Source of the DNA: Patescibacteria group bacterium UBA6017
GTDB taxonomy: Bacteria; Patescibacteriota; Saccharimonadia; UBA4664
Length of the DNA stretch: 64,000 nt
Reading direction: 5' to 3'
Assembly (NCBI GenBank): GCA_002429485.1
Contig: DIZX01000015.1
Coordinates: 325,488 to 389,487 of the forward strand
The notes under the pieces: generated by a model
What the model was told of the DNA's origin: nothing
Seen by the model: the letters and a program-made list of their open reading frames with translations, nothing else
The model's database searches: none
Translations under genes and position numbers: made by a program
Shown: piece by piece, positions 18,185 to 36,742 of the stretch
Numbering within the stretch: the first letter of the stretch is position 1
Layout: every line of letters starts with the position of its first letter

Positions 18185-18260
18185 TGGTGGGCCCGGCAGG
18201 ATTTGAACCTGCGACCAAGCGGTTATGAGCCGCCTGCTCTAACCACTGAGCTACGGGCCC
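18185..18260 (-). tRNA. tRNA(CAU), probably tRNA-Ile2 (lysidine) given C4-G69/C5-G68 and near-identity to canonical Ile2
   Basis: Reverse complement gggcccgtagctcagtggttagagcaggcggctCATaaccgcttggtcgcaggttcaaatcctgccgggcccacca: cloverleaf with CAU anticodon. Confidence 0.8.
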
Positions 18261-18306
18261 GTATCCGGAATGCGGAATAGAGCTAGTATATATTATACTT
18301 AGTCCA

Positions 18307-18690
18307 ATGAAACTTCCAAAAATAAACCTCAACGCCAATAGTGCGCTCAATTTTGTTGGCGCGGTCATAATATTCTATCTGGTGGCCGTCCTGGGCCAGA
18401 CCGTAAAACACAATTATGACCTCGGCCGGCAGATCGATGATTTGAGGACTCAAATCATCGATCTGCAGGGTCAGAAAGAGCAGCTCGTCTACAGCATTGC
18501 ATATTACAATACCGACGCTTTTCGCGACCGCGAAGCTCGGGCCAGGCTTGGATTACAGCTCCCGGGTGAAAACGTGGTCATCATTCCCCACGCCAGCCCC
18601 GCTCCGAGTGCATCGACGCAGAGCAGTAAAACCTCCGTCAAGCACTCGAACCCTCAGCAGTGGTTTGATTTCCTAACCGGCCGAATCTAG
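18307..18690 (+). CDS. FtsB/DivIC-like septum formation initiator (TM + coiled coil)
   Basis: N-terminal TM followed by a heptad-like coiled coil (LGRQIDDLRTQIIDLQGQKEQL). Confidence 0.5.
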   Translation: MKLPKINLNANSALNFVGAVIIFYLVAVLGQTVKHNYDLGRQIDDLRTQIIDLQGQKEQLVYSIAYYNTDAFRDREARARLGLQLPGENVVIIPHASPAPSASTQSSKTSVKHSNPQQWFDFLTGRI

Positions 18691-19826
18691 CTCAGCGCTC
18701 GTGCGCGATTAGCCGCAATAACCATGCCGCCGATTGCCCAGATTGCCGTCGACAGGCCGAAAAATCCGCCAATCAAGGGCAGCCACGCCGCTAGCGCGAC
18801 TATCGGCACTCCAGCCAGGGCGGCGAGCGCCAGTCCGCGGCGATCATCATCCACTTGCTGCAGAATTAACCTGCCCACCGTCACTCCCGCAAACCCGGCC
18901 GAGGTCACCAGCGCCAGCACCCACAATGTACCAAGCACCAATGCTATCGGCAGGCCCACCACGGTTATCGCCAGAAATACCAAAACCATCGGGCCGGCGA
19001 TTACCGTCAGCGCTCCCCAGCCGATGCTAGCCGACCAGCGCGTGCGCATTGTGCCCGCCACACTGCCTATCAGCCTCGGCGCCAACCATATTGCCACCAG
19101 TACGCCCAGTAAGGTCGCCACTATCGAGTACAGCAGCGTGCCTAGCCGGTCGGCTACGGTCGTGCTCCGAGTTGCCGCCCGGACTGGTGCGTGCCTAGCT
19201 ACTTGCCCCTGAATTTTCGACTTATCGAGAGCAAATGTATTGTCGCTAGTGTAGTCCAGATTGCCCGTCACGGCAGCACCGCCTCCGAGGGTCAGAGTCT
19301 GCGCCTCCGCCGTAACGCTCCCGCCAACCGTAGAGTTGATCGCCAGTGTTCCGGCACCAGCATACACCGCTTGCCCCACAGAGCCGTTTAGAGTGGCCGT
19401 CTGCGCCCCCACAGCCACATCTCCGCCAACCTTAGCGTTGCTCCCCAATACAAGGTTCTGCGCCCCCACAGTGACGTTACGAGCCACATTGCCGTTGATG
19501 CTCACGATCTGGCCTCCTGCCCGGACACTCCCGCCTACCGGGCCGTTCACGGTCAGCGTCTGTGCGCCGCACAGTACGTCGCCGCCGACAGAGCCGTTAA
19601 TTACCACCGACTGTCCGGCGCACACCACGTCGCCAGTAACATTGCCGTCGACCGTAATCGTTTGCCCGGCTACGTAGTAATTTCCGGTCCGGTTGTCGCC
19701 CTTCGCCAGGGTTACATCCGTCGCGGCGCTCTGTGTGGCTGCTAACGCCACGGCCGGAACCGCCAGAGCCATAATTAAACCTAATAGAATACCGATTCTT
19801 CTCATTGCAGCTCTCCTTTTCGTCAA
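18687..19826 (-). CDS. secreted beta-helix-repeat (bactofilin/DUF583-like) protein with a C-terminal polytopic membrane anchor
   Basis: Signal peptide; more than 10 tandem roughly 18-aa repeats GxVxGDV/VxINGxV; 4-5 C-terminal TM helices. Confidence 0.55.
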   Translation of the reverse strand: MTKRRAAMRRIGILLGLIMALAVPAVALAATQSAATDVTLAKGDNRTGNYYVAGQTITVDGNVTGDVVCAGQSVVINGSVGGDVLCGAQTLTVNGPVGGSVRAGGQIVSINGNVARNVTVGAQNLVLGSNAKVGGDVAVGAQTATLNGSVGQAVYAGAGTLAINSTVGGSVTAEAQTLTLGGGAAVTGNLDYTSDNTFALDKSKIQGQVARHAPVRAATRSTTVADRLGTLLYSIVATLLGVLVAIWLAPRLIGSVAGTMRTRWSASIGWGALTVIAGPMVLVFLAITVVGLPIALVLGTLWVLALVTSAGFAGVTVGRLILQQVDDDRRGLALAALAGVPIVALAAWLPLIGGFFGLSTAIWAIGGMVIAANRARALS

Positions 19827-19900
19827 CCTATTATACGCCCTTTTATAGCTTCCATCATTGACCGGTCCGCCTCAATCTGGTATGTTATACGCTGTTACAC

Positions 19901-19976
19901 CGCGGGGTGGAGCAGCTGGCAGCTCGTTGGGCTCATAACCCAAAGGTCGTAGGTTCGAATCCTACCCCCGCTACCA
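19901..19976 (+). tRNA. initiator tRNA-fMet (CAU)
   Basis: cgcggggtggagcagc...ttgggctCATaacccaa...: C1 mismatch, three consecutive G-C pairs in the anticodon stem; near-identical to the canonical bacterial initiator. Confidence 0.85.
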
Positions 19977-20084
19977 AGAACTAATCCAAAATTGAGACGA
20001 GCGCTCCAGTGTGGGCGCCGTTTTAATTTATAGGTAGTAATTCTTGCCTTTTCTACCTCAAACTCTTACAATTTGTACTCGTAT

Positions 20085-20159
20085 GGCTGCGTAGCTCAGT
20101 GGTAGAGCAGGAGACTCATAAGCTCTTGGTCGGTAGTTCGAATCTACCCGTAGCCACCA
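20085..20159 (+). tRNA. elongator tRNA-Met (CAU)
   Basis: ggctgcgtagctcagtggtagagcaggagactCATaagctcttggtcggtagttcgaatctacccgtagccacca. Assigned as elongator Met because it lacks the C4/C5 TilS determinants; assignment versus Ile2 is inferential. Confidence 0.75.
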
Positions 20160-20164
20160 ATGAA

Positions 20165-20191
20165 AACACCCGACTTTCGTCGGGTTTTTTC
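20165..20191 (+). terminator. intrinsic terminator after the tRNA cluster
   Basis: acccgac-tttc-gtcgggt followed by tttttt. Confidence 0.8.
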
Positions 20192-20207
20192 ATTGCTAGG
20201 TTATGAG

Positions 20208-20282
20208 CCGGGTAGATGAGAACAGGTTAGTTCGGCGCAGCGGAGCGGAGAAGGCGCAGCCGCTATCTACCCGTAGCCACCA
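20208..20282 (+). repeat. duplicated 3' end of tRNA-Met (18/18 nt atctacccgtagccacca) within a long hairpin
   Basis: 20265-20282 is identical to tRNA-Met 20142-20159. ccgggtagat (20208-17) pairs with atctacccg, enclosing a 48-nt insert. att-site-like footprint. Confidence 0.6.
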
Positions 20283-20295
20283 TGCATTTATTAAT

Positions 20296-20325
20296 AAAGC
20301 ACCCGCCAGCTGGCGGGTGCTTTAT
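20296..20325. terminator. hairpin terminator downstream of the minus-strand gene 20343-20762
   Basis: gcacccgcc-agct-ggcgggtgc with flanking A/T runs. Confidence 0.6.
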
Positions 20326-20342
20326 ATCTTCGCGCAAATATA

Positions 20343-20762
20343 CTAGCGGTAACGGATATCGGTCATGCCGACAACGTACTTGAAGTCTACTCCGGTATTA
20401 TTCGGGCCGGTGAATGTCACCATCACGCCGCCGGTGATGTTCTTCCCGACAGCAGTCCAGCCGGGGTCGGTGCAAATACCGCGCAGGGTGATCGAAGCGA
20501 GGGGGCCGTTTGTCGTGATCAACATTCGGACATGTCCGGCAGTAGGTAGTGGGTAGGTCTGCTCCTGCCCCCCAATAACGTCAGCGAAAATCCAGTCGGT
20601 GGCGCAGGGACCAATGTCGTTGACGTAGCTAGTAGCATTACTGCCGCCCGATGCCGACACCGTGCCGACGTTCAACGCCAACGGAGCCGCCAGCATGACC
20701 GATGCCAAGAGGGTTAATTTAATTCTAGATACGATATTGGTATGCAAGGTGCACGCCTCCAT
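20343..20762 (-). CDS. hypothetical secreted protein (139 aa)
   Basis: Clear signal peptide (LTLLASVMLAAPLALNVGTVSA), then Gly/Thr-rich beta-type composition. Confidence 0.5.
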   Translation of the reverse strand: MEACTLHTNIVSRIKLTLLASVMLAAPLALNVGTVSASGGSNATSYVNDIGPCATDWIFADVIGGQEQTYPLPTAGHVRMLITTNGPLASITLRGICTDPGWTAVGKNITGGVMVTFTGPNNTGVDFKYVVGMTDIRYR

Positions 20763-20832
20763 TAGTGTTTTATATCTGTACAGTGTGTAACGGACGAGGG
20801 AGGGGATTCGTTACAAAAGCGCAATTATTTAA

Positions 20833-20864
20833 CACAAAAACGGCCCCAAATAGGGCCGTTTTTG
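20833..20864. terminator. bidirectional intrinsic terminator
   Basis: aaaaacggcccc-aaatag-gggccgtttttg. Confidence 0.75.
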
Positions 20865-20988
20865 TGTCTTTATAAATGGGGGCTCTGCCTCAGCCAACCA
20901 GCCGGTGGTTGTTTAGCTAGGGTAGGGGTGGGGGTGGTAGCCGAAACTACCACCCCCGGGAACTGCTTGTGATGCCCGCGGGCGTCGG

Positions 20989-21954
20989 TCAGGCCGCGAT
21001 GAGGGCCATGAGTGATGTCAGCTTGATGGCTCCGTAGGCCTCGAGGACCTGTGGGCGGGGCCCGATGAGCCGAACCGTTGTGCCCGACGGCACGTACGAG
21101 AGCAGGCCGCCCTGACTCATCATCCACAACGACATGTTGTCGATCGCCGAGATGGAGTTGGCCTGCACCGACAGCGTGCTGAAGCGGTCCTGGTCGGCGA
21201 CGTAGCCGATCGTGCGGCCGATGAGCTGTGCCATCAGTCGACCGACCTCGACGGCGAACGGATCGCCGCTCTTGGCCAGAGTGCACAGGCGGGATACGAG
21301 CACCCTCCTGAGATGGCGGTCAGACGGGTGGTTGACCGCCGCCTCCATCATCATCGAAGTGCGCACATCCGGCGTGAGTCCGACTTCAGCGTTCGTCGCC
21401 TCGATGAACTGAGCAGCGTTGAGCCAGCCGAGGTTGCCGAGCAGCTCGATGGAGCTGTTGTTGGCCGGCGAGCCCACGAAGTTGGCGAACTCGGACGTCC
21501 GCGGGCTGAATCCAGCGATGACGTCCGCTTCCACGAACCGGTGTGTTCTGAGATCCCCGTCAACGGCCCAGCTAGTCCACTTGGGACCAATCTTGAGCAA
21601 CGCCTGAGGGAGCCCGCCGTCGTTGACGCCGCGCTGGATCAGAACCTGGGACTTGTCGCCCACGAGCTGGTATCCGGCGAGCGTTGCAGCCGTCGGGGAT
21701 ACAGCCTGAAGGTTCATGCCCTTGGGCACGGTGACCCGGTCGATGGTGTAGCCGTTGTGGTGCGAGATGCCGATGACTCGAGTTGAGAATCCAACCCATG
21801 GAAGGATCTCGTTCTCGATCGTGCCGATGACGGAGTTGTCCGGCAGGATGACGCCTGAGCGCTCCCGAGGTGCGCCGCGCGGGGGGATGACCACCGCGTG
21901 GTACTTCTCGTCACACACAGCAACGCCGACGCCGTGAAACTTGTTCTCAAGCAT
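20989..21954 (-). CDS. hypothetical protein (321 aa), higher GC than its surroundings; monocistronic with its own AT-rich promoter and terminators
   Basis: Long ORF of about 65% GC against about 58% locally. A perfect 11-bp hairpin (20930-20957) follows the stop. No recognisable motif. Confidence 0.5.
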   Translation of the reverse strand: MLENKFHGVGVAVCDEKYHAVVIPPRGAPRERSGVILPDNSVIGTIENEILPWVGFSTRVIGISHHNGYTIDRVTVPKGMNLQAVSPTAATLAGYQLVGDKSQVLIQRGVNDGGLPQALLKIGPKWTSWAVDGDLRTHRFVEADVIAGFSPRTSEFANFVGSPANNSSIELLGNLGWLNAAQFIEATNAEVGLTPDVRTSMMMEAAVNHPSDRHLRRVLVSRLCTLAKSGDPFAVEVGRLMAQLIGRTIGYVADQDRFSTLSVQANSISAIDNMSLWMMSQGGLLSYVPSGTTVRLIGPRPQVLEAYGAIKLTSLMALIAA

Positions 21955-22191
21955 GTGTCCTCCTAGGACTGGTTTTCGAACTGGTGGGTGCGGCGGATTG
22001 CCGCGTTCACAAGCAGATTGTCAAACTTCAGAATTATGGACTTCAGTTCATGAAGTTTGAATTAAGATTTCTAAATTATACTCATGTTTACTGGGTTGTC
22101 AATACTAATTATATGTGGTCTAGTAGTAATTTGGTGCTCCCTCAGTCTTCTTGCGACATCCTGACTAAGAATATCCGCTACAATATACGGC

Positions 22192-23109
22192 ATGGAAGAG
22201 CTCGATATTAATTGGCCGGCACCGGGAAAATACATCATCGCCGTCTCCGGCGGCGCCGATTCTATGGTGCTGCTCGATATATTTGCCTGTGCCAGCGCTC
22301 GCCGGTACGAGCTCATCGCCGCGCACGTGGACCACGGCCTGCGCCCCGAGTCTGCGTCCGATTCGGAATTTGTAGCTGCGGCCGCCGAACATTACGGCCT
22401 GCCGTTCGAACAGCTTTCGGCCGGACTCGGGCAGGCTAGCGAGGCCTCGGCACGAGCGGTGCGCCATGATTGGCTCGAGCAAACCCGCCAAAAATTCGGT
22501 GCCATCGCCGTACTCACCGCTCATCATCAGGACGACCTGCTCGAAACAAGCCTGCTAAACCTGGCCCGCGGCAGCGGACGGCTCGGTTTGGCCCCGATGG
22601 CCAGCAGCCCCACCATCCTCCGGCCCCTCATTAACCTCACCCGCGATGACCTCCGCCGCTACGCTTCCGAACACCAAATTGCGTGGCGCGAGGACCTCAC
22701 CAACGCCGATATCAGCAATCCCCGTAACTTTTTGCGCCACCAGCTCCTGCCCCGCGCCGACGCCAACTGGAGGGCTTCCTATCTGGAAAATGTCTCTCAG
22801 TTAGCAAAATTGAACAAAAAAGTTGATCAAAGCATAAGCACAATTCTGGAATCTGCTTACGTCCCGCCAAACACCTATTCATTTCCCGTTAATTACGTCC
22901 GCAACATGAATGACGGAGAGTTCGAGGAGATCATTCTCGCCGCGTCGAGACGCCTGCGTCCGGGAGTCCAGCTAGACAGGCGTCTCATTGTTGAGGCGGC
23001 CAATTTTGCGAAAACCGGCCTTCCCCGCAAATTTCGGCCACTCCGCCAAGACATCGTGATTAATATCGAATCAGACAGTATTTACCTCACTACAAATACC
23101 CCTCGGTAG
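22192..23109 (+). CDS. tilS: tRNA(Ile)-lysidine synthetase
   Basis: PP-loop SGGADS (IIAVSGGADSMVLLD); sits immediately upstream of ftsH as in many bacteria. Confidence 0.85.
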   Translation: MEELDINWPAPGKYIIAVSGGADSMVLLDIFACASARRYELIAAHVDHGLRPESASDSEFVAAAAEHYGLPFEQLSAGLGQASEASARAVRHDWLEQTRQKFGAIAVLTAHHQDDLLETSLLNLARGSGRLGLAPMASSPTILRPLINLTRDDLRRYASEHQIAWREDLTNADISNPRNFLRHQLLPRADANWRASYLENVSQLAKLNKKVDQSISTILESAYVPPNTYSFPVNYVRNMNDGEFEEIILAASRRLRPGVQLDRRLIVEAANFAKTGLPRKFRPLRQDIVINIESDSIYLTTNTPR

Positions 23110-28028: not shown

Positions 28029-28793
28029 ATGAATTTGGTTATCCAAGGCCTTTTAACCCAGTATCTGGACGAAGGCGACCGGCGTAGCCCCGTGGTGCTT
28101 ATACTCCATGGGTGGGGTACTGACGCCAAAAACTTTGATTCCCTGGCGGCCTATCTGGCTGGGGATTTTCGAGTCTTGCGCCTCGATCTGCCCGGTTTTG
28201 GGGGCACCGAGGCACCCGCCGGCGCCTGGCGTGTCCGTGATTATGCGGAATTTGTCGCCCGCTTCCTGGAAAAACTCAATATTATTGAACTCCGCGGTGT
28301 CATTGGGCACTCATTTGGCGGTCGGATAGTCATCAAGGGTCTGGCCGAGGGTATTCTAAGCGCCCGTCAGGCGGTATTGATTGATTCGGCCGGCATTACC
28401 CACCCCAAGACCATGCGTGTTCAGGTTTATGGGCTGGTGGCTCGGATTGGCAAACGGTTGCTGGCGCTTCCGGGTATTAGCAAGTTCGCTCCCGGCCTGC
28501 GTCGTCGACTCTACCGGTCAGCCGGCAGCACCGATTATCTGGAGTCCGGGAACTTGCGCCGCACCTTCCTGAACGTCATCAATGAAAATCTCGCCCCGGC
28601 CGCTGCTCGCATTACCGTCCCAACCTTTATCGTTTGGGGTGCCGATGATCTGGACACCCCACCGTCCGACGGCCGAATCCTCGCCAACCTGATCCCAAAT
28701 TCCAGCTACTCCCTAATCGCCGGCGCCGGGCATTTCGCCCATAACGATGCCCCCGACCGGGTTAACCCCTTAGTCAAAGAGTTCTTACGATGA
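28029..28793 (+). CDS. alpha/beta-fold hydrolase
   Basis: Nucleophile elbow GHSFGG; HGWG oxyanion region; C-terminal His. Confidence 0.7.
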   Translation: MNLVIQGLLTQYLDEGDRRSPVVLILHGWGTDAKNFDSLAAYLAGDFRVLRLDLPGFGGTEAPAGAWRVRDYAEFVARFLEKLNIIELRGVIGHSFGGRIVIKGLAEGILSARQAVLIDSAGITHPKTMRVQVYGLVARIGKRLLALPGISKFAPGLRRRLYRSAGSTDYLESGNLRRTFLNVINENLAPAAARITVPTFIVWGADDLDTPPSDGRILANLIPNSSYSLIAGAGHFAHNDAPDRVNPLVKEFLR

Positions 28794-30220
28794 AAAAGTT
28801 TCTTAGTAGTTTTGACCCCAAGTTTGCCGCCTCGCTCGTTTATATGCTCCAGGCCAGCGAATACGACGCTCGCGAATATCTGGGTTGGTTCTGGCGAGCC
28901 AAGGATTTTCGGACCGTCGCCAGCCGGGGCCAGCTTGATCGCACGCTCAAAGCCAGATTGCTCTTGGGCTTTACCTATTTCGCCATGTTATCTGAGGCGC
29001 TCGCACTGGCCTTCGCGCTCATTCAAGCTTTCGCCCAACCCGTCTGGCTCATCGCCGCCGCCATCCTGATCTGTCTTTCGCCGCTGATATCGGCGTACTC
29101 GCTGGTGGCGGTACTCTGGCTTGGCCGCATCACCGTTCAGTCTCGCCGTGAACGGGCAGCTATCGCTCGGGCTCGGGCAACCCTCGGTCACCACCCCGGG
29201 ACGCGAATTGCTATCGCCGGGAGCTATGGCAAAACTACCTTCAAGGAAATTCTTCGGACCATCCTTGCTGAAGCCAAAAATGTGGCCGCCACACCCGGCA
29301 ATATGAATACACCCCTCGGCATCAGCCGGTTCATTACCGATCTGAAGGGGGACGAAGATGTCTTAATTTTCGAGCTTGGTGAATACTATCCGGGGGATAT
29401 TGCTTCTCTGTGCGAACTCGTACGACCGCAAATGGGGATTATTACCGGCATCAACGAAGCCCATTTGAGCAAATTCAAAACCCTTGAGCGTACTGCCGCC
29501 GCCATCTTTGAACTCGCCGATTACCTCGGTGAGCTGCCCGTGTATAAGAACGGTGACAACCCCCTGGTTCGAGCCAAAATCGTCATCGACGACCCGTTGG
29601 CCTATACTGCCGGCGGCGTCAACGGCTGGGAGGTCAGGGATGTCGTCGTCGCCGTGAATTCCACCTCGTTTACGGTCCAAAAAGATGAAGTTACTTTGGC
29701 CGTTCAATCCCAGCTCCTTGGCCGTCAAAACATTGGTCCGCTGGTTGCGGCCATCGATATTGCCCACAATATGGGCTTAACAGCAAAACAGATTATTTCC
29801 GGTATCGCCAGCACCAAACCTTACGAACACCGGATGCAGCCTCGGCGGCTCGCTGGGGCGTGGGTGATCGACGATACGTATAACGGTAATAGTGACGGTG
29901 TCAGGGCCGGATTGACCTGGCTTGCTACGATCAAGGCTGAGAGGCGCATATATGTGACGCCCGGTCTGGTAGAGCAGGGGAGCCAAACCGCCGAAGTTCA
30001 CCGCGGGATCGGCGCACAGATAGCCCCAGTCGCAGATATGGTAGTGCTGATCAAAAACTCGGTCACCAAATATATTCAGGAGGGCCTGGCGGACAGGCAC
30101 TATGCCGGCGAGCTTATTATCGTGGATGATCCGATGAATTTTTATCTGAATCTCGAACACTTTGTGGCTGCCGGAGATGTGGTGCTGATGCAAAATGATT
30201 GGACCGATAACTACGCCTAA
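28790..30220 (+). CDS. murF: Mur ligase family protein (MurF-like) with an unusual N-terminal roughly 130-aa transmembrane region
   Basis: P-loop IAIAGSYGKTTFKE and Mur ligase middle/C domains. The N-terminus has 2-3 TM helices instead of the usual N-domain. Follows ddl. Confidence 0.65.
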   Translation: MKKFLSSFDPKFAASLVYMLQASEYDAREYLGWFWRAKDFRTVASRGQLDRTLKARLLLGFTYFAMLSEALALAFALIQAFAQPVWLIAAAILICLSPLISAYSLVAVLWLGRITVQSRRERAAIARARATLGHHPGTRIAIAGSYGKTTFKEILRTILAEAKNVAATPGNMNTPLGISRFITDLKGDEDVLIFELGEYYPGDIASLCELVRPQMGIITGINEAHLSKFKTLERTAAAIFELADYLGELPVYKNGDNPLVRAKIVIDDPLAYTAGGVNGWEVRDVVVAVNSTSFTVQKDEVTLAVQSQLLGRQNIGPLVAAIDIAHNMGLTAKQIISGIASTKPYEHRMQPRRLAGAWVIDDTYNGNSDGVRAGLTWLATIKAERRIYVTPGLVEQGSQTAEVHRGIGAQIAPVADMVVLIKNSVTKYIQEGLADRHYAGELIIVDDPMNFYLNLEHFVAAGDVVLMQNDWTDNYA

Positions 30221-30291
30221 TTACGCTTAAGCTTATTGACTTTAACGCCCGTTTTAGCCATTGTTAAGTTACTAAGTGGAAATTTCTCAGG

Positions 30292-32055
30292 ATGCAACTT
30301 CGCGCCCATCATCTTGTCGTATCTTTGTTTACCGGTGCGGTTGTACTCGGATCTCTCGCCGTCCTCACAGTAAATCCGCGGACTGCACAGGCTGCCTGCG
30401 CGACCGGCTCGAGCGTCCTTATCACCAGCCCTGCCAATACCGTCACCGGCACCACTCAAACAGGCGTCATTAATCTCTCGGCCTATTCCACCCCCATTGC
30501 GGCCAGCAGCCTCAGCTTTGTATTACTGCCATCTACCGCCACAACCACCCAGCAACCCATTGGTATGGCTACTTTGAACGGGTCTCAGTGGGTTTTGAGC
30601 TGGGACTCCCGCAACCAGCCAAATGGCACGTATCAGCTTATGGCGGTGGCACATTTCGGCACTTCTACCACTCAGGACTGTGCCAGCTCGTTGGTCCCTC
30701 TTAGTGTCTACAACCTCGCTACCCAGGCGCCACTGCTCGAAGGAGCCATTACCCCCAATACTTGGCAGGGGCCATTGGGCTCGAGCGCTCCGTTTAGCCT
30801 CGATGCCTTGTATACCGACCAATACGGCCGCAAGTCCCACGTTAGCCCAGCAAGTGTAAATTGGCATTCTCCGTTTGGTGCAACTTTGCCAGTTAGCGCC
30901 AACCCTACCGTCTTCACAGCCGGCGCAGTCGGTTCAGGCCCGCTCACGGTGGCTTTCTCTTATAATAGTTTGGCGGCTACCGCGATTGCCCAGGTGAAGG
31001 TAAGTGCACCCACAACAACAGCCACCGCTTCCCCGACCCCAACCCCGACTCCGAAGCCTAGCTCCTCCCCCTCGACTGTAAACACAGCCTCCACTGAGCC
31101 AACTCCAACCCCTTCGCCGGTGAGCGCCGCCGACGCCACGCGCCTGGCCGCCATGCCAACCATTTTTCGTCCCACCGCTCCTACCAACTCCGATCCGGTA
31201 GTGAACATCCCAACCCTGAGCTGTCTTGAGATCGCCTTGGGCAAAGTCCGTTTTAGCGAAATCTCTGGCGGCAAGAGCCAGCCGACCGCGGCTGAACGCA
31301 AGCTTGCTGCGGCCTGTTTCTCCGGCGCCGAGCCCATCCCGTCGGTCTTGGCGCCAATCGCGCCCGCCAATCTTACCGAGTTGGATTCTACTACCGATAT
31401 TGTGTCGCTCACCAGTATCGATAATCACACCACGACCGCCAAGAACGGCAAAACGGTCAAAGGTCTGCTGCTTAGCGGCAAGGGTTCTCCAAACTCGAAT
31501 ATTTTCATCTACGTCTTCTCCGACCCGTTAGTGCTCAGGGCCGAAACAGACAGCCAGGGCTCCTGGAAGTACGTTCTCGAAACCCCTCTCAAGGCAGGCC
31601 ATCACGAAGTCTATGCCGTAGCGGAAAAAGACGCCGGCAACTTTGTTCGCACCTCAGCCGTGCCCATCACGATCGCTGCGGCTGCCCAGGGTAGTCAGGA
31701 CGGCAACCTTGTCGTGGAGGGCAAGTGGTCCACCGCCCAGATCGGCTTCGCGGCCGGCGCCGGCGTCCTCGTTCTGGCTGCCTTTGGCGTGCTGTTTACA
31801 ATCATGCGCCGCCGACGGCCAGCCGCCCTCGTTGCTGCCGACACCGTTCACTCGGTTTCAAGCGCCGCCTCGGCACCGGGACCGCTTCCCGGGCTTATCC
31901 AGCCCAATGCGCCCGCAGCTGCCCCGGCCGCCGAGGTCGTTCCCGCGCCGCCAGTCCCTACTCCGCCCGCCACTCCCGCCGCCCCCGCTACCATCGATCC
32001 CGCAGCCGGTCCTAGTCAGCCCACCGAGCCGACCTCCCATGACGCTCAAGTTTAA
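30292..32055 (+). CDS. cell-surface protein: signal peptide, Thr/Pro-rich linker, C-terminal TM anchor and Pro/Ala-rich cytoplasmic tail
   Basis: Signal peptide; TPTPTPKPSSSPS linker; TM segment GFAAGAGVLVLAAFGVLFTIM followed by RRRRP. Confidence 0.5.
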   Translation: MQLRAHHLVVSLFTGAVVLGSLAVLTVNPRTAQAACATGSSVLITSPANTVTGTTQTGVINLSAYSTPIAASSLSFVLLPSTATTTQQPIGMATLNGSQWVLSWDSRNQPNGTYQLMAVAHFGTSTTQDCASSLVPLSVYNLATQAPLLEGAITPNTWQGPLGSSAPFSLDALYTDQYGRKSHVSPASVNWHSPFGATLPVSANPTVFTAGAVGSGPLTVAFSYNSLAATAIAQVKVSAPTTTATASPTPTPTPKPSSSPSTVNTASTEPTPTPSPVSAADATRLAAMPTIFRPTAPTNSDPVVNIPTLSCLEIALGKVRFSEISGGKSQPTAAERKLAAACFSGAEPIPSVLAPIAPANLTELDSTTDIVSLTSIDNHTTTAKNGKTVKGLLLSGKGSPNSNIFIYVFSDPLVLRAETDSQGSWKYVLETPLKAGHHEVYAVAEKDAGNFVRTSAVPITIAAAAQGSQDGNLVVEGKWSTAQIGFAAGAGVLVLAAFGVLFTIMRRRRPAALVAADTVHSVSSAASAPGPLPGLIQPNAPAAAPAAEVVPAPPVPTPPATPAAPATIDPAAGPSQPTEPTSHDAQV

Positions 32056-33406
32056 TCAGCAGCGCCTCGAAGTCGCTTATTCGATATTTTTGGTAATCCT
32101 GATACCGGCCGTCATCGTGGCCGGCACGGTCTGGCTCACCAGCCAAATCAAGAGTGATTTTGATCTCGAATTGCGCCGCAAAGCCAACCTAGCCAATGAG
32201 GTCTTCGGCATTTCGGCGACCAATATCATGAACGCCAACAGTCCCAGCCAAGCGGCAATATTACTGCAGCAACTCGTCGATCAGGCTCGTTCCCAGGCGC
32301 CCGAGATCGATCAGCTCAGCATCGTCAGCTCGAGCGGTACGGGCTTTCGTACCCTAGCTAGCTCGGATACCGCCAAGGTCGGTCAGACCGACACCACCAT
32401 CCAGACTCAGCTCGCTTGGTCAAAAGGGCAATCCATCGCCAGCTTGATTGCCTCGGGCGAGGGCAATGACCGTGAATGGCTCGTAGCAACCCCGCTTATC
32501 GGCTCCGGTGGTCAGCCGTCCGCCATTTCAATCATGCGCGTATCGTTGCACTCTTCCGATGAACTCATTGGTACCACTCTGCGCAATTCCTTTATCGGCC
32601 TCAGTATTATGGTAATAATCATTATCCTGCTGCTTCTCAACCATTTCCGCTTCGTCCAGTACGCCGAGCTCTTCCGCGCCCAAAAAGACCTCAACCAAAT
32701 GAAGGACGACTTTATCAGTATTGCCACCCATGAGCTAAAAGCGCCTATGAGTGTCATCAAGGGTTACCTTTCTATGGTTCTTGAGGAAGATGATCTATCC
32801 AAAACCGCCCGTGAAATGACTACTATTGCCCAGGACCAAACCAACCGCCTGACGCGGCTGGTCACCGACCTACTCGATGTTTCCCGGTTGGAGCAAGGCA
32901 AAACCAAGTATCATCTCAGTCCGGTTAATCTGGCTGCCACTATCGGACCGATGATTAATACTTACGAGGCAAAGGCCAAATCAAAAGGGCTAGCCCTCGT
33001 CTATCAACCGCCCGCCGAGCTGGCATCCGTTATGGCCGATCCGGACCGTGTTAGTGAAATTTTCACCAATCTCATCGACAACGCCATTAAATATTCCCGT
33101 ACCGGCACTGTCACCATCAGTCACGCCACCGCCCCGGGTGTGCTCGCCACCACAGTTAAAGATACCGGCATTGGGCTTACCCCGGATGAAGTCTCGCATT
33201 TGTTCGCCCGCTTCTATCGGGCTAAAAACCTCGATACTCGGGACATCGAGGGTACCGGCCTCGGGTTGTGGATCATCAAGCAGTACATCGAGAAAATGGG
33301 CGGTACCATCGCCGTGGAAAGTGAAAAGGGGGTAGGCTCACAATTTATTGTCACCCTGCCAGTTGCGCCCACGCTCAACGCGTCATCAGCCCAATCCTTG
33401 ACTTAA
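32039..33406 (+). CDS. sensor histidine kinase (orphan; no cognate RR adjacent)
   Basis: TM helix; H-box ATHELKAPMSVIKGY; HATPase N/G boxes (IDNAIKYS, GTGLGLWIIK). ATG 32039 overlaps the upstream stop; the track 5' extension to 31643 is rejected. Confidence 0.8.
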   Translation: MTLKFNQQRLEVAYSIFLVILIPAVIVAGTVWLTSQIKSDFDLELRRKANLANEVFGISATNIMNANSPSQAAILLQQLVDQARSQAPEIDQLSIVSSSGTGFRTLASSDTAKVGQTDTTIQTQLAWSKGQSIASLIASGEGNDREWLVATPLIGSGGQPSAISIMRVSLHSSDELIGTTLRNSFIGLSIMVIIIILLLLNHFRFVQYAELFRAQKDLNQMKDDFISIATHELKAPMSVIKGYLSMVLEEDDLSKTAREMTTIAQDQTNRLTRLVTDLLDVSRLEQGKTKYHLSPVNLAATIGPMINTYEAKAKSKGLALVYQPPAELASVMADPDRVSEIFTNLIDNAIKYSRTGTVTISHATAPGVLATTVKDTGIGLTPDEVSHLFARFYRAKNLDTRDIEGTGLGLWIIKQYIEKMGGTIAVESEKGVGSQFIVTLPVAPTLNASSAQSLT

Positions 33407-33909
33407 ATTCAATAATATGCTACTCTGCAAAATACTCTTTAACAACAAAGCCTTTGCGTAGCGGTAATTAGCCTCGACCTGCGAGCCTAGCTACTGCTAC
33501 GTAACGTAGCGATTAATTTGTGCGCGGTTCTCGTTCGTTCGCCCCCTCGGACGATACTTGAGCTGTGCCTGCGGTAGCAGTGTTGACCCTGAAGTGCAGA
33601 CTTTTTGTACGGATGGTGACCACTGTCACGCACCTTGCTGGGGTGTGGGACGGCGCTTTTGCGGGCGCCTCTACGACAGCCAGGACGGGATTAGCCACTT
33701 GTTTGCTTGCGAAATTCTCGTGAGTAAACAGCTAATTTTTCGAGACTCACCTCTCGGAATACGCCGCTTGAGGCGTTCCCAACCTGAAGTGATCTGAGAG
33801 GATACCGCCGCTGGGGTTGCTCCCGGACGCGGTGTCTGTGCCCCTCCCAGATTATCTAGACTCGACCGCACATCGAGGCAGTGCACGGATCTCCGACTGT
33901 TCAGTAAGT

Positions 33910-34259
33910 GGAGATTAACTCGGGTAAGTGCGGCACCGTGAACATACGGTGCCAGCTAACTCAATATAATCAGGATTTGGTCCGCAAACCACTTTCTGAG
34001 GGCAATCGGCTTGTCCGGACTGGTCATTTTGACAGGAACTATAGCCGATGAGGAGCTGCTGTAATGTGTCCCCGAGGACACGAAGCTCCAATAACCAAAC
34101 CAGGATGGGCTGGTTCGCTTCAAAAGTCGCGAGACTTTAGTCGACGAGGGCTACTGCCCTAGCGGACATTCGTCCGTGTCGATTCTCGTTTTCAGGGTCG
34201 GGCTCCCATCAGCCCCCACCTTTCCTTCTATCCGGCGGTCACCGCCGGATCCGAGCCCC
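33910..34259 (+). ncRNA. candidate structured ncRNA (tmRNA-like features; unverified) ending AAGCUCCACCA
   Basis: No coding potential. The 3' end aagctccacca is followed immediately by an intrinsic terminator (34260-34280). A short ORF-like stretch ends in UAA (34062-34064) just ahead of a hairpin (gtgtcc-ccga-ggacac). The 5' boundary is uncertain. Confidence 0.25.
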
Positions 34260-34280
34260 AAGCTCCACCAGAGCCTAGGG
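34260..34280 (+). terminator. intrinsic terminator
   Basis: agagcc-tag-ggctct followed by ttttc. Confidence 0.7.
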
Positions 34281-34923
34281 CTCTTTTTCTTTGATTTTTC
34301 TTCCCCAGCCGGGAAGATCTCCGGTACGCATGGACATGAAAAAGCGGACCGAATCTTCGGTCCGCCAGGGCGGATGGGGCTGAGCCATGCGGCCCAGCCC
34401 CCAACTTTCTTGATGTTTCCAGTGCCTCCTAGTCTAGTTCGCCGGGCCTCGGAATCTGCTTCGGGTTTGGGTGGGTGCGCCTCCACGCAGCCCGTTTTCG
34501 TTCTCGATCAACAGCCGCAGCCATCTGCTCCGGCGTACGGGCTTTGCGTGGAGGGGATTTTCTTGGGTGGTTAGGATCTGTTGTCAGCATCCTGAGGGAG
34601 GGCAGGTAAAAAGGCATCGCATACCTCTTTCTTGGAGTGCGGGTCGTTTCTTCGGTCCGCCGCTAGAAACGCACATCTGGCGGTGGGACCAGCTGTCCTG
34701 GGTGGGTGCGGAACCATTCCTCTCGCCGATTTGCGGACTTCTTGTCCGCGGCTCGTTGCTCTGGCGTACGGTTGTCGGGTGGCGGAGCAACGACCGGGTC
34801 GCCGTCACATCTCGACCAATCACCGGAATAGCGTGTGCCAATGACCATTTCATCCCTCCATAAGGTGCGGGCCGGCCGGGTTGGCCAACATAAACGCAAT
34901 CTTAAAAATCTTTTCGAGATTTG

Positions 34924-34952
34924 TCAAGCCCGTACTCCGCCTGTATAATCAA
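34924..34952 (+). promoter_or_regulatory. sigma70 consensus promoter for lepA (TTGTCA-17-TATAAT)
   Basis: atTTGTCAagcccgtactccgcctgTATAATcaac, 6 nt upstream of the lepA GTG. Confidence 0.7.
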
Positions 34953-34957
34953 CTACT

Positions 34958-36742
34958 GTGAACCAACCCCATACCCGAAATTTTTGTATCATCGCGCATA
35001 TCGACCATGGTAAGTCTACCTTGGCCGATCGCATGCTCGAGCTCACCGGCACCGTCCACAAGCGAGACATGCAGGCCCAACTCCTCGATTCTATGGATCT
35101 CGAGCGCGAAAAAGGCATTACCATCAAGCTCCAGCCCGTGCGCATGGCCTGGAAAGAACATCGTCTCAACCTCATCGACACCCCCGGACACGTCGACTTC
35201 AGCTATGAGGTCTCGCGTAGCCTCGCCGCCTGCGAGGGCGCTGTGCTGGTGGTGGACGCCTCGCAGGGCATCCAGGCACAAACCCTGGCCAACGTCTACC
35301 TCGCCATCGAGGCCGGCCTTACTATCATCCCTGTACTCAACAAAATCGACCTGCCTGCTGCCGATCCGGAGCGCGTGGCCGGCGAAGTGGCCAGCCTCCT
35401 CGGCGTCGACCCCGATACCATCCTGCGCGTCTCCGGCAAAACCGGCGCCGGCGTGCCTGAGCTCCTCGATATGATTGTCGAAAAAGTCCCGCCTCCGTCC
35501 GGCGATCCCGAAGCCCCGTTGCGCGCCCTCGTTTTCGACAGCGTCTTCGACGACTACCGTGGCGTCATCCTATTTGTGCGCATCGTCGACGGCCAGCTCA
35601 AGCGCCACGACACCCTGAGGCTCATCAACGCCGCCACCGACGGCCTGGCCGTGGAAACTGGCATGTTCGCGCCCAAGCAAACCGCCGTTCCATTGCTCGA
35701 AACTGGCCAAATCGGTTATGTGGTCACCAACCTCAAATCCATCGCCGAAGCCCGGGTGGGGGACACCGTCACGCTCAGCGCCAACCGCGCCGCTGAAGCT
35801 CTTCATGGTTACCGCCAAGTCAAACCCTTTGTTTTCGCCGGCTTTTTCCCTACCAGTAACGAGCAATACCCCGCCCTCAAAGACGCTCTCGAAAAACTCA
35901 AGCTCAACGACGCCGCCCTCATCTACGAGCCCGAATCTTCCCAGGTGCTCGGCTTCGGCTACCGCGTTGGCTTCCTCGGTCTGCTGCATCTCGACATCAT
36001 CAAGGAGCGCCTCGAGCGCGAATACGGCCTCGATATGGTAGTCACCAGCCCCAGTACCGACTACATCGTGCGTAGCCACGACGGCACCGAACGCACCATC
36101 CGCTCCGCCGCTGACCTTCCCGATCCCAGCTACATCGAAGAAGTCCGAGAGCCCTGGATCACTGGTGAAGTCGTGGTCCCCGGCGACTACATCGGCGGCG
36201 TCATTCAGCTCGTCAACCGTATCCGCGGTATCCAGAAAAACCTTACCTACGTCGACGAAAAACTCGCCCTCATCGCCTTCGACGCCCCTCTCGCCAATGT
36301 CCTCACCGACTTCTATGACTCACTCAAATCCATTACCAGCGGCTACGGCAGCTTCAACTATGAGCTCGCCGCCTATCGCCGCGAAGAATTAGTCCGCCTC
36401 GACATCCTCGTCGGCGGCGATATGGTCGACGCGCTCTCCCTGATCGCCCACAAAGACGAGGCCTACCGCGCCGGCAAGCAGATCGTCGAAAAGCTCAAAA
36501 CCCTCATTCCCAAGCAAAACTTCGAAGTTTCCCTCCAAGCCGCCATCGGGGGCAAAATCATTGCCCGCGAAGACGTGAAAGCCGTGCGTAAAGACGTTAT
36601 CGCCGGCCTCTACGGCGGCGACGTAACCCGCAAAAATAAGCTCCTCGATAAACAGAAAAAAGGCAAAAAGCGCATGAAACGCGTCGGTAAATTCGACATC
36701 CCCGCCGAAGCCTTCATGATCCTCGTCAGCAAGGATAGCTAA
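34958..36742 (+). CDS. lepA: elongation factor 4 (LepA)
   Basis: IRNFCIIAHIDHGKSTLADR G1 motif, DTPGHVDF, and the conserved LepA C-terminal domain. GTG start. Confidence 0.95.
   Translation: MNQPHTRNFCIIAHIDHGKSTLADRMLELTGTVHKRDMQAQLLDSMDLEREKGITIKLQPVRMAWKEHRLNLIDTPGHVDFSYEVSRSLAACEGAVLVVDASQGIQAQTLANVYLAIEAGLTIIPVLNKIDLPAADPERVAGEVASLLGVDPDTILRVSGKTGAGVPELLDMIVEKVPPPSGDPEAPLRALVFDSVFDDYRGVILFVRIVDGQLKRHDTLRLINAATDGLAVETGMFAPKQTAVPLLETGQIGYVVTNLKSIAEARVGDTVTLSANRAAEALHGYRQVKPFVFAGFFPTSNEQYPALKDALEKLKLNDAALIYEPESSQVLGFGYRVGFLGLLHLDIIKERLEREYGLDMVVTSPSTDYIVRSHDGTERTIRSAADLPDPSYIEEVREPWITGEVVVPGDYIGGVIQLVNRIRGIQKNLTYVDEKLALIAFDAPLANVLTDFYDSLKSITSGYGSFNYELAAYRREELVRLDILVGGDMVDALSLIAHKDEAYRAGKQIVEKLKTLIPKQNFEVSLQAAIGGKIIAREDVKAVRKDVIAGLYGGDVTRKNKLLDKQKKGKKRMKRVGKFDIPAEAFMILVSKDS

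What the first reader, a model, noticed from the sequence alone, without database searches (positions are those of the whole stretch)
33407..34957. 1.55-kb gap with no credible protein-coding gene, holding a candidate ncRNA that ends ...AAGCUCCACCA
Coding density elsewhere in the window is above 90%. This interval, by contrast, yields only overlapping Arg/Pro/Trp-rich ORFs on both strands. Several structural features stand out: a hairpin with a stop codon in its loop (gctacg-taa-cgtagc near 33500); an 8-bp hairpin ggcaccgt-gaacat-acggtgcc; and a short ORF-like stretch ending in UAA at 34062 immediately before the hairpin gtgtcc-ccga-ggacac, the arrangement seen for tmRNA tag reading frames. 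The 3' end, aagctccacca (34250-34260), resembles the acceptor/CCA end of tmRNA (E. coli ...CCAGCUCCACCA) and is followed directly by an intrinsic terminator. A plausible 5' partner GGAGAUU (33910) would give a roughly 350-nt RNA. I could not fold a convincing T-arm, and RNase P and rRNA fragments were considered and not supported. The region may therefore hold a divergent tmRNA (ssrA) or another unknown structured RNA, and ssrA is a classic island integration site.
Basis: partly seen in the sequence, partly recalled or inferred. Interest (0 to 1): 0.7.

Follow-up and report, generated by a model that had tools for sequence, protein, structure and literature searches.

The report
Accessory islet with orphan structured RNA
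The 1.55-kb "empty" stretch is not a tmRNA gene but a rare, strain-specific insert in a Saccharimonadia (CPR) genome that probably carries an ~0.86-kb hairpin-rich non-coding RNA and, facing it, two tiny paralogous protein genes, all of unknown function.

Summary
The tmRNA reading fails. ARAGORN and Rfam find no tmRNA, RNase P or 6S. "AAGCUCCACCA" is the 5' arm and loop of a long intrinsic terminator. The only diverged homolog reads CCACUA, and close relatives lack the region.

In five related contigs the histidine-kinase stop lies 33 nt from lepA, so 33407-34942 is accessory DNA in a variable slot. It holds two convergent units.

- **Plus strand:** a conserved promoter, about 860 nt with no coding signal and strongly over-stable folding, then the terminator.
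- **Minus strand:** a conserved promoter, two tandem paralogous ORFs (61 and 62 aa) with Shine-Dalgarno sites, then two hairpins including a terminator.

One diverged copy of the islet (L089) keeps this architecture. The RNA's 5' and 3' modules are conserved above the neutral rate and show compensatory pair changes; the middle is unalignable.

Best reading: an orphan structured ncRNA plus an ORFan small-protein family, function unknown. The evidence rests on two lineages, so interest is moderate to low.

The parts
33398..33426 (+). Promoter of the candidate ncRNA. The -35 box TTGACT (33398-33403) overlaps the end of the histidine-kinase gene. A 17-nt spacer ends in TGC, giving an extended -10, followed by TACTCT (33421-33426).
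   Evidence: Read from the sequence. L089 has the same layout: TTGACT, 17 nt ending in TGC, then TAACGT (alignment). The consensus scan missed it because the -10 matches only 3 of 6 positions.
33433..34290 (+). Candidate non-coding RNA of about 860 nt. Both ends are inferred, not mapped.
   Evidence: No coding signal and no Pfam hit in any frame. MFE -369.7 kcal/mol with z = -7.3 on the plus strand, against -342.4 and z = -5.6 on the minus strand. It aligns with L089 3205-2269 (nhmmer E = 1.6e-51). That region folds with z = -9.5 sense and -7.6 antisense.
33428..33527 (+). Conserved 5' module, including the long hairpin 33454-33504 (helices of 13, 4 and 4 bp) and the GCTACG-TAA-CGTAGC hairpin.
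   Evidence: About 70-82% identity to L089, depending on the exact window, against 66% at fourfold-degenerate sites of lepA. One compensatory pair and several G.U-preserving changes that work only on the plus strand. Consensus-fold z = -6.6 sense against -2.2 antisense. The covariance model finds no other copy in 357 kb of related loci.
33528..33955 (+). Variable middle. It cannot be aligned with L089 but is hairpin-rich in both sequences.
   Evidence: 35-45% column identity. Window z-scores on the plus strand are -2.2 to -4.7, weaker on the minus strand. All L089 windows in the region are negative in the same orientation.
33960..34252 (+). Conserved 3' module. It contains hairpins 34066-34081, 34093-34115 and 34123-34138, a three-way junction at 34139-34184, and hairpin 34230-34250.
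   Evidence: Exactly conserved blocks of 10-17 nt: CCTAGCGGACA, TCGATTCTCG, GCGGTCACCGCCGGAT, CGAGCCCCAAGCTCCAC. RNAalifold finds 9 pairs changed on both sides and still paired. Consensus-fold z = -3.1 for 34120-34292, with no strand discrimination.
34253..34292 (+). Intrinsic terminator of the ncRNA: GAGCCC-caa-GCUC-CACCA-GAGC-cua-GGGCUC followed by UUUUUCUUU.
   Evidence: In L089 the same hairpin is 13 bp with loop CACUA.
34343..34401 (-). 3' end of the small-ORF operon. A 26-nt hairpin sits at 34376-34401, followed by terminator GGCGGACCGAAGAUUCGGUCCGC (34366..34343) and a U run.
   Evidence: Terminator scan. The 26-mer is identical in L089 and occurs nowhere else in the window. The stem is conserved and the loop differs in L089.
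34429..34617 (-). Small ORF B, 62 aa. ATG start with GAGG 6 nt upstream.
   Evidence: Paralog of ORF A.
34639..34661 (-). Hairpin between ORF A and ORF B. It is a degenerate copy of the operon terminator with no U run.
   Evidence: Direct repeat D2, 83% identity; unit alignment.
34663..34848 (-). Small ORF A, 61 aa. ATG start with GGAGG 6 nt upstream. Shared core motif RTPEQxAA...RxxWxRTHP.
   Evidence: Called as a gene (P0001) on same-strain contig L081. Homolog P0122 on L089. AlphaFold predicts a single helix at residues 29-48, mean pLDDT 70.
34849..34927 (-). Conserved 5' UTR and promoter of the small-ORF operon: TTGACA (34927..34922), 17 nt, TAAGAT (34904..34899).
   Evidence: Promoter scan, 10 of 12 matches. 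87.6% identity to L089 over 34855-34998, with TTGACA-17-TAAACT there.
34921..34949 (+). lepA promoter: TTGTCA, 17 nt, TATAAT. The -35 box is supplied by the islet. Homology with all relatives starts at 34943, the base before the -10 hexamer TATAAT (34944-34949).

Best explanation
The interval 33407-34942 is a rare accessory islet. It sits in a cargo slot between the stop codon of a sensor histidine-kinase gene and the -10 box of lepA, in a Saccharimonadia (Patescibacteria/CPR) genome.

It holds two convergent transcription units.

1. Plus strand. An extended -10 promoter drives a non-coding RNA of about 860 nt, made almost entirely of hairpins. The RNA has a conserved 5' module, a fast-evolving or replaced middle, a conserved 3' module, and a long Rho-independent terminator.
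2. Minus strand. A promoter back to back with the lepA promoter drives a short operon of two tandem paralogous proteins of about 60 aa. Each is basic and proline-flanked with a single predicted helix. The operon ends in two hairpins, the second a terminator.

Shown: the accessory status, the promoter and terminator sequence signals and their conservation, the paralogy and homology of the small ORFs, the absence of coding signal, the excess folding stability, and some compensatory changes in the RNA.

Inferred: that the RNA is transcribed as one molecule, and that the RNA and the small proteins work together. They are inherited together in both lineages that carry the islet. The most likely mode is an RNA-protein or RNA-regulated module that has spread among close relatives by recombination through the flanking genes. 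Its cellular role is unknown.
For: Accessory status:
- The histidine-kinase stop is followed 33 nt later by the lepA start in L083, L084, L085 and L086. In L100 the two genes are likewise adjacent (kinase match ends at 991, lepA homology starts at 1050), with no insert.
- Homology with all relatives stops near 33374 and resumes at 34943.
- Other cargo occupies the slot in L087, L001 and L094.
- The same insert appears on an independent contig of the same strain, L081 (99.7% identity).
- A diverged copy with the same architecture is on L089.

RNA:
- No coding signal.
- Full-length fold z = -7.3 in the window and -9.5 in L089. The sense strand is 27 and 34 kcal/mol more stable than the antisense.
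- Sliding-window z-scores are negative across the region in both genomes and near 0 in flanking genes.
- The promoter and terminator are conserved.
- There are four exactly conserved runs of 16 nt or more, where I estimate about 0.4 expected at the neutral identity of 0.66.
- Compensatory and G.U-preserving changes occur in the hairpins.
- Consensus-fold z for the 5' module is -6.6 sense against -2.2 antisense; the lepA control gives -1.3.

Small proteins:
- BLASTP E = 5e-7 between ORF A and ORF B.
- The two units align in frame from Shine-Dalgarno site to stop codon.
- Both have SD and ATG.
- Homolog P0122 has the same length and motifs.
- The operon promoter and 5' UTR are conserved.
Against: - Only two independent lineages carry the islet, so covariation cannot be tested statistically.
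- Many pairs of the single-sequence MFE structures break in the other sequence.
- The 3' module gives no strand discrimination, so DNA-level palindromes or the convergent terminators could explain part of the signal.
- The middle 430 nt are not conserved at all.
- No transcription data are available.
- No homolog was found in 80 genome loci, phage records, plasmid records, IMG/VR or a JGI metagenome scan.
- The small ORFs have atypical codon usage and no family assignment.
- Of the four substitutions in ORF A between the two same-strain contigs, three are non-synonymous. That gives no sign of purifying selection at that short scale.
Confidence: 0.55

Rival explanations
1. Non-functional DNA. 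The islet is decaying foreign or pseudogenised sequence, and only the promoters and terminators of neighbouring units are maintained. On this view the folding excess comes from terminator hairpins and composition.
For: - The middle 430 nt cannot be aligned between the two copies.
- The region is dispensable in close relatives.
- No homologs were found anywhere else.
- Single-sequence MFE pairs are often broken in the other copy.
Against: - The 5' module reaches up to 82% identity, and there are several exact blocks of 16-27 nt, against a neutral identity of 0.66.
- A dedicated promoter and terminator are conserved at both ends of an interval with no ORF.
- Excess stability extends over about 900 nt in both copies, including the parts that do not align.
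- The 5' module has a strand-specific conserved structure.
- No Pfam remnant appears in any frame.
Confidence: 0.22
2. DNA-level element. The hairpin-rich segment would be the control or recombination region of an integrated mobile element, such as a small plasmid or satellite origin, a single-strand origin, or att-like sites, rather than an RNA gene.
For: - The islet sits in a slot that takes other cargo, including an IS1595 transposase in L087.
- The 3' module is equally over-stable on both strands.
- The islet's divergence from L089 is patchy and partly exceeds that of the flanking genes.
Against: - No transposase, integrase or Rep gene is present.
- I found no terminal inverted repeats or target-site duplication at the junctions.
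- No phage or plasmid match exists.
- There is one copy per genome window and no other copy in related loci.
- G.U-preserving changes in the 5' module point to selection on one RNA strand.
Confidence: 0.12
3. A structured RNA interrupted by, or consisting of, a divergent self-splicing intron or ribozyme. Patescibacterial group I introns can escape Rfam RF00028.
For: - The layout is conserved 5' and 3' modules flanking a variable structured middle.
- Divergent group I introns in Patescibacteria are reported to be missed by RF00028 and ARAGORN (PMC13011429).
Against: - No group I or group II match appears even at E <= 10 in either copy.
- The flanking modules match no known host RNA.
- An intron would normally be either conserved or cleanly absent, not unalignable.
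Confidence: 0.05
4. Divergent tmRNA (ssrA).
For: The 3' string ...CCCCAAGCUCCACCA resembles the E. coli tmRNA 3' end and precedes a run of T.
Against: - ARAGORN and Rfam are negative in both copies.
- There is no T-arm.
- No G3.U70-compatible 5' strand exists.
- CCA reads CUA in L089.
- The string is the arm and loop of the terminator.
- The candidate tag frame is not conserved.
- The locus is absent in close relatives.
Confidence: 0.01

Closest known systems
tmRNA (Rfam RF00023 and relatives)
   Same: It is several hundred nucleotides long and structured. Its 3' string resembles ...GCUCCACCA and is followed by a terminator.
   Different: It has no tRNA-like domain, no T-arm and no G3.U70. The CCA is not conserved, and neither is any tag ORF. 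It is accessory rather than core, and the motif is itself part of the terminator hairpin.
Large orphan bacterial ncRNAs of unknown function (OLE, GOLLD, ROOL, HEARO; all in Rfam)
   Same: It falls in the same size class (0.6-0.9 kb), is densely structured, sits in accessory or mobile DNA, and has no ORF.
   Different: It matches none of these models even at E <= 10. Those families are defined by strong covariation across many genomes, whereas only two lineages are known here and the middle third is not conserved.
Type I toxin-antitoxin loci with convergent RNA and small-protein genes (for example par/Fst RNA I-RNA II, TxpA/RatA)
   Same: A small-protein mRNA and a non-coding RNA are transcribed convergently with adjacent terminators in dispensable DNA.
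   Different: The proteins are basic, proline-rich and non-hydrophobic rather than membrane peptides. The predicted transcripts stop about 50 nt apart and do not overlap. The RNA is about ten times longer than typical antitoxin RNAs.
ColE1-type replication control (structured RNA II with the 63-aa Rom/Rop protein)
   Same: It combines a long structured RNA with a helical protein of about 60 aa encoded nearby.
   Different: There is no replicon context and no antisense RNA I equivalent. The small protein is predicted as a single helix, not a helical hairpin. This resemblance rests on my own knowledge and was not tested.

Membership tests
tmRNA (ssrA) | tRNA-like domain: an acceptor stem closed by the 5' and 3' ends, plus a T-arm immediately 5' of the 3' acceptor strand | tested here: not met
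   ARAGORN finds no tmRNA at default or 90% thresholds. At 80-70% it gives only spurious permuted calls, none ending at 34270. All Rfam tmRNA models are negative at E <= 10. The sequence 5' of AAGCUCC is a 9-bp hairpin with a triloop followed by CCGAGCCCC, which is not a T-arm.
tmRNA (ssrA) | G3.U70 alanine identity pair in the acceptor stem | tested here: not met
   The proposed 5' strand GGAGAUU (33910) gives A3-U and an A/G mismatch. GGAGCUG (34050) also has A3, and it is not conserved in L089.
tmRNA (ssrA) | Conserved 3' CCA and a conserved tag reading frame | tested here: not met
   L089 reads CCACUA. The stretch ...EELL-UAA is replaced by a different sequence in L089.
tmRNA (ssrA) | Core single-copy gene present in all close relatives | tested here: not met
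   The interval is absent from L083, L084, L085, L086 and L100, where the histidine-kinase gene abuts lepA.
RNase P RNA and 6S RNA | Match to the Rfam covariance models (RNaseP_bact_a/b, 6S) | tested here: not met
   No match at gathering score or at E <= 10, in the window interval or in the L089 homolog.
Group I / group II introns | Catalytic core detectable by RF00028, RF00029 or the group II domain models | tested here: inconclusive
   No match at E <= 10. However, patescibacterial group I introns are reported to escape RF00028 (PMC13011429), and the dedicated model was not available here.
Type I toxin-antitoxin | Small hydrophobic membrane toxin, and an antisense RNA overlapping or complementary to its mRNA | tested here: not met
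   ORFs A and B are Arg/Pro-rich with one amphipathic helix. The terminators at 34283 (plus strand) and 34343 (minus strand) leave the transcripts non-overlapping. The one 15-nt complementarity (34210-34224 against 34395-34409) is not conserved in L089.
Known anti-phage defence systems (PADLOC) and phage protein families (PHROGs) | Protein match to a model of the library | tested here: not met
   No hit below E = 0.07 for ORF A (tested as its same-strain variant P0001), ORF B, P0122 or the 205-aa L089 protein.

The most novel reading that the evidence does not exclude
The plus-strand transcript would be a previously undescribed class of large (about 0.9 kb) structured RNA in Saccharimonadia. 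It would work with a new family of roughly 60-aa basic single-helix proteins encoded opposite it. The pair would form a small self-contained RNA-protein module, such as an addiction-, defence- or regulation-type module, that moves between close relatives by recombination at the histidine kinase-lepA slot.
Probability: 0.2. Interest if true: 0.6.

Novelty: new member of a known kind. Interest (0 to 1): 0.33.

Why it matters
CPR/Patescibacteria genomes are small and densely coding, so 1.5 kb with no ordinary gene stands out. If the RNA is real, it would be one of very few large non-ribosomal structured RNAs proposed for this phylum. It would also come with an ORFan small-protein partner and a defined variable genomic slot, which makes it testable.

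On present evidence it is confined to two closely related lineages, apparently from cold-soil or permafrost metagenomes (sample identity is from my recollection and was not verified). Its general importance is therefore limited.

The practical result of this check is negative for the original claim: this is not ssrA. The "CCA end" is a terminator loop.

Tried and rejected
**tmRNA, RNase P and 6S.** ARAGORN, including thresholds relaxed to 70%, and Rfam at gathering score and at E <= 10 were negative on the window interval and on the L089 homolog.

**Frameshifted or decayed protein gene.**
- The codon-usage log-odds scan showed no coding frame.
- Six-frame Pfam scans gave nothing.
- tblastx against 100 loci gave only one hit, to a low-complexity proline-rich segment of an L087 protein, which I rejected as compositional.

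**Homologs by DNA similarity.**
- BLASTN and nhmmer against 80 lepA loci found nothing.
- Phage and plasmid collections gave no match.
- Four IMG/VR pattern scans gave two hits to an 18-mer, and their flanks show both are chance matches.
- A JGI metagenome pattern scan returned zero hits. It missed even the known JGI contigs, so that collection does not hold them.
- A metagenome scan with the histidine kinase returned 9 loci, none carrying the islet.

**Proteins.**
- The word-index search with ORF A found only its same-strain copy.
- The 205-aa L089 protein is an ORFan. Its other contigs are too short to reach the RNA.
- Its AlphaFold model is unusable, with pLDDT 38.
- The ORF A model is a single helix, so I ran no fold search.

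**Other tests.**
- RNA-mRNA duplex prediction gave only long, loop-ridden duplexes, which I discarded.
- A diversity-generating retroelement was considered because substitutions cluster in ORF A. I rejected it because there is no reverse transcriptase, the two repeats are only 70% identical, and the changes are not adenine-specific.
- A covariance model of the 5' module found no further copy in 357 kb.
- A crude coding-density script was unreliable and I did not use it.
Full report
**Organism and context**

LepA, encoded at 34958-36742, is 96% identical to a MAG contig labelled only 'bacterium' (L001). It is 70-79% identical to Candidatus Saccharimonadia/Saccharibacteria MAGs. The window therefore comes from a Saccharimonadia (Patescibacteria/CPR) genome. 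The gene ending at 33406 is a HisKA/HATPase_c sensor histidine kinase.

**Checking the observation**

The interval 33407-34957 is the longest stretch of the window without an ORF of 150 aa or more. A codon-usage log-odds scan trained on 34 long ORFs of the window scores the kinase and lepA at +0.4 to +0.7 bits per codon. Within the gap, no frame stays clearly above zero.

The hairpins, the UAA at 34062-34064, GGAGATT at 33910-33916, and the terminator-like hairpin with its T run are all present.

The folding excess is real:
- Sliding 150-nt windows give z-scores of -2 to -4.7 across 33400-34450 and about 0 in the flanking genes.
- Across the whole 64-kb window the mean is -0.24 with sd 1.24, and this is the longest run of strongly negative values.
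- The 901-nt plus strand folds at -369.7 kcal/mol with z = -7.3. The minus strand gives -342.4 and z = -5.6.

**The tmRNA reading fails**

- ARAGORN finds only four tRNAs in the window and nothing here. Dropping thresholds to 80-70% gives only spurious permuted calls that do not end at 34270.
- Rfam 15 gives no tmRNA, RNase P, 6S, intron or other credible match at gathering score or at E <= 10.
- The nucleotides before AAGCUCC form a 9-bp triloop hairpin followed by CCGAGCCCC, which is not a T-arm.
- The candidate 5' strands give A3-U70 rather than G3.U70.
- The MFE and the comparison with the homolog show what the motif really is. It belongs to a long terminator hairpin, GAGCCC-caa-GCUC-CACCA-GAGC-cua-GGGCUC-UUUUU, at 34253-34288. 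GCUC is stem and CACCA is the apical loop.
- In the diverged homolog the loop reads CACUA, and the internal loop is closed by compensating changes into a 13-bp stem.

**The interval is accessory DNA**

I searched for orthologs of the histidine kinase and fetched their contigs.
- In L083 (kinase 89% identical) and L084, L085 and L086 (87%), the kinase stop codon is followed 33 nt later by the lepA GTG. L100 (97% over its partial match) also has the two genes adjacent, with no insert.
- Homology between the window and every relative stops near 33374, in the variable C-terminal tail of the kinase. It resumes exactly at 34943, the base before the lepA -10 box.
- The slot is a cargo hot spot. L087 carries an IS1595-family transposase and two ORFs there. 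L001 carries a membrane protein and a MarR-like ORF, with most of the kinase deleted. L094 carries yet another ORF.
- I saw no terminal inverted repeats or target-site duplication.
- The same insert occurs at 99.7% identity on an independent JGI contig of the same strain, L081.

**Right third: a small-protein operon on the minus strand**

- A promoter, TTGACA-17-TAAGAT (34927..34899, 10 of 12 matches), is followed by a 5' UTR of about 45 nt.
- Then comes ORF A (34848..34663, 61 aa, GGAGG 6 nt before the ATG).
- A degenerate hairpin follows, then ORF B (34617..34429, 62 aa, GAGG 6 nt before the ATG).
- A 26-nt hairpin (34401..34376) comes next.
- The operon ends in a terminator (34366..34343 plus a U run).

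The two units are a tandem duplication. They align in frame from Shine-Dalgarno site to stop codon, and the proteins match at E = 5e-7 with a shared core RTPEQxAA...RxxWxRTHP.

A profile of A and B, searched against 1.84 billion representative proteins, found only the same-strain copy and one 58-aa protein, P0122 (E = 1e-8). P0122 has the same length, N-terminal G-R-W/Y-S, PPP, RTPEQR, RRxxWxRxHP and C-terminal PPPDxxF. This is a genuine but extremely rare small-protein family. AlphaFold predicts one helix (residues 29-48) between proline-rich tails. Pfam, PHROGs and PADLOC give nothing.

**A diverged copy of the whole islet**

P0122 lies on L089 (JGI 3300012003), again between lepA and the histidine kinase. 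Read from the lepA side, L089 has:
- the shared promoter and 5' UTR, 87.6% identical to window 34855-34998;
- an ORFan of 205 aa, whose only database match is itself;
- P0122;
- the same two hairpins, with the 26-mer identical;
- about 950 nt with no called gene;
- the kinase.

nhmmer aligns window 33408-34291 to L089 3205-2269 at E = 1.6e-51. Window, L089, L001, L083 and L084 are roughly equidistant, at 84-88% in lepA DNA except for the closer pair L001-L084 at 94%. The islet's presence is therefore patchy within one genus.

**Left two thirds: a candidate non-coding RNA on the plus strand**

Conservation against L089 is very uneven:
- The promoter is conserved: TTGACT, a 17-nt spacer ending in TGC, then TACTCT in the window and TAACGT in L089.
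- A 5' module at 33428-33527 is up to 82% identical, including an exact 18-mer.
- The middle, 33528-33955, is unalignable at 35-45% column identity.
- A 3' module at 33960-34252 carries exact blocks of 10-17 nt.
- The terminator is conserved.

The neutral benchmark is 66% identity at fourfold-degenerate lepA sites. At that rate I estimate about 0.4 exact runs of 16 nt or more by chance, and four are seen.

RNAalifold finds 9 pairs in the 3' module and 2 in the 5' module that changed on both sides and stayed paired. It also finds several G.U-preserving single changes that work only on the plus strand.

I ran a column-shuffling test of the consensus fold:
- 5' module: z = -6.6 sense, -2.2 antisense.
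- 34120-34292: z = -3.1 sense, -3.0 antisense.
- 33955-34120: z = -1.7 sense.
- lepA control: z = -1.3.

The homologous L089 region is also over-stable, with z = -9.5 sense and -7.6 antisense, and the sense strand is 34 kcal/mol lower. Every sliding window in that region is negative in the RNA orientation, while the neighbouring 205-aa ORF and lepA sit near 0. No Pfam domain appears in any frame, and no ORF is conserved between the two copies.

**Weaknesses**

- With two lineages, covariation cannot be assessed statistically.
- When the MFE of one sequence is projected onto the other, many pairs break: 20-33 single-sided breaks in the 3' module.
- The 3' module does not discriminate between strands.
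- The middle is not conserved.
- There are no expression data.
- A covariance model of the 5' module finds no other copy in 357 kb of related loci. No similar DNA was found in phage, plasmid, IMG/VR or JGI pattern searches.
- One caveat from the literature: group I introns of Patescibacteria can escape RF00028 and ARAGORN (PMC13011429). An intron-like or ribozyme nature of the variable middle is therefore unlikely but not strictly excluded.

**Conclusion**

The observation of an unusual gene-poor, hairpin-rich interval is right in substance. The tmRNA interpretation is wrong, and 'no credible gene' is wrong for the right third.

The best-supported description is a rare accessory islet with two convergent units: an orphan structured ncRNA of about 0.86 kb running from its own promoter to its own terminator, and an operon of ORFan proteins of about 60 aa. 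They are inherited together in the two lineages that have the islet. How they function is inference only.

Noticed in passing
window 33375-34942; L083 7362-7396, L087 7380-9990, L001 1040-2117, L094 2868-3755: The junction between the histidine-kinase gene and lepA is a cargo hot spot in this genus. It is empty in five contigs. L087 carries an IS1595 transposase plus two ORFs, L001 carries a membrane protein plus MarR (with the kinase largely deleted), L094 carries another ORF, and the window and L089 carry the ncRNA/small-ORF islet.
   Followed up: partly
window 34708, 34717, 34775, 34835 (ORF A) versus L081: Four of the five substitutions between the window and the 99.7%-identical contig L081, over 6.4 kb, fall within 128 nt of ORF A. 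Three are non-synonymous (T5K, D25A, E44D). This could be local hypervariability, a short recombination tract, or assembly noise. They do not match ORF B or P0122 at the aligned sites.
   Followed up: partly
L081 (whole locus) versus window 28762-35219: L081 carries 13 single-base insertions relative to the window, several of them extending an existing base run. They split the Mur ligase and histidine-kinase genes, so they are probably sequencing or assembly errors in L081.
   Followed up: partly
window 20166-22200: In L003 the tRNA-Met gene is followed about 90 nt later by the ortholog of the gene at 22192, so about 2 kb of the window here is a second insert next to a tRNA gene. It holds a 139-aa ORF with an N-terminal hydrophobic stretch that may be a signal peptide (20343..20762, minus strand) and a 321-aa ORF with no Pfam match (20989..21954, minus strand). 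Window z-scores at 20100-20950 are also strongly negative.
   Followed up: partly
window 18185-20159: Three tRNA-Met (CAU) genes lie within 2 kb, one on the minus strand and two on the plus strand.
   Followed up: no
window 34921-34927; L089 about 1235-1245: The -35 boxes of the lepA promoter (TTGTCA, plus strand) and of the small-ORF operon (TTGACA, minus strand) overlap back to back in the near-palindrome CTTGACAAA. This is conserved in L089. In relatives without the islet, lepA seems to use TTAACG, overlapping the kinase stop codon, as its -35 box.
   Followed up: partly
L089 1327-1944 (also L090, L102-L105): A 205-aa ORFan sits between the conserved 5' UTR and the small ORF in the L089 version of the islet. 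The identical protein is seen in six samples, but no homolog exists in 5.8 billion proteins. The AlphaFold model has pLDDT 38. Four of its five other contigs (L090, L102-L105) end within or just after the small ORF downstream of it.
   Followed up: partly
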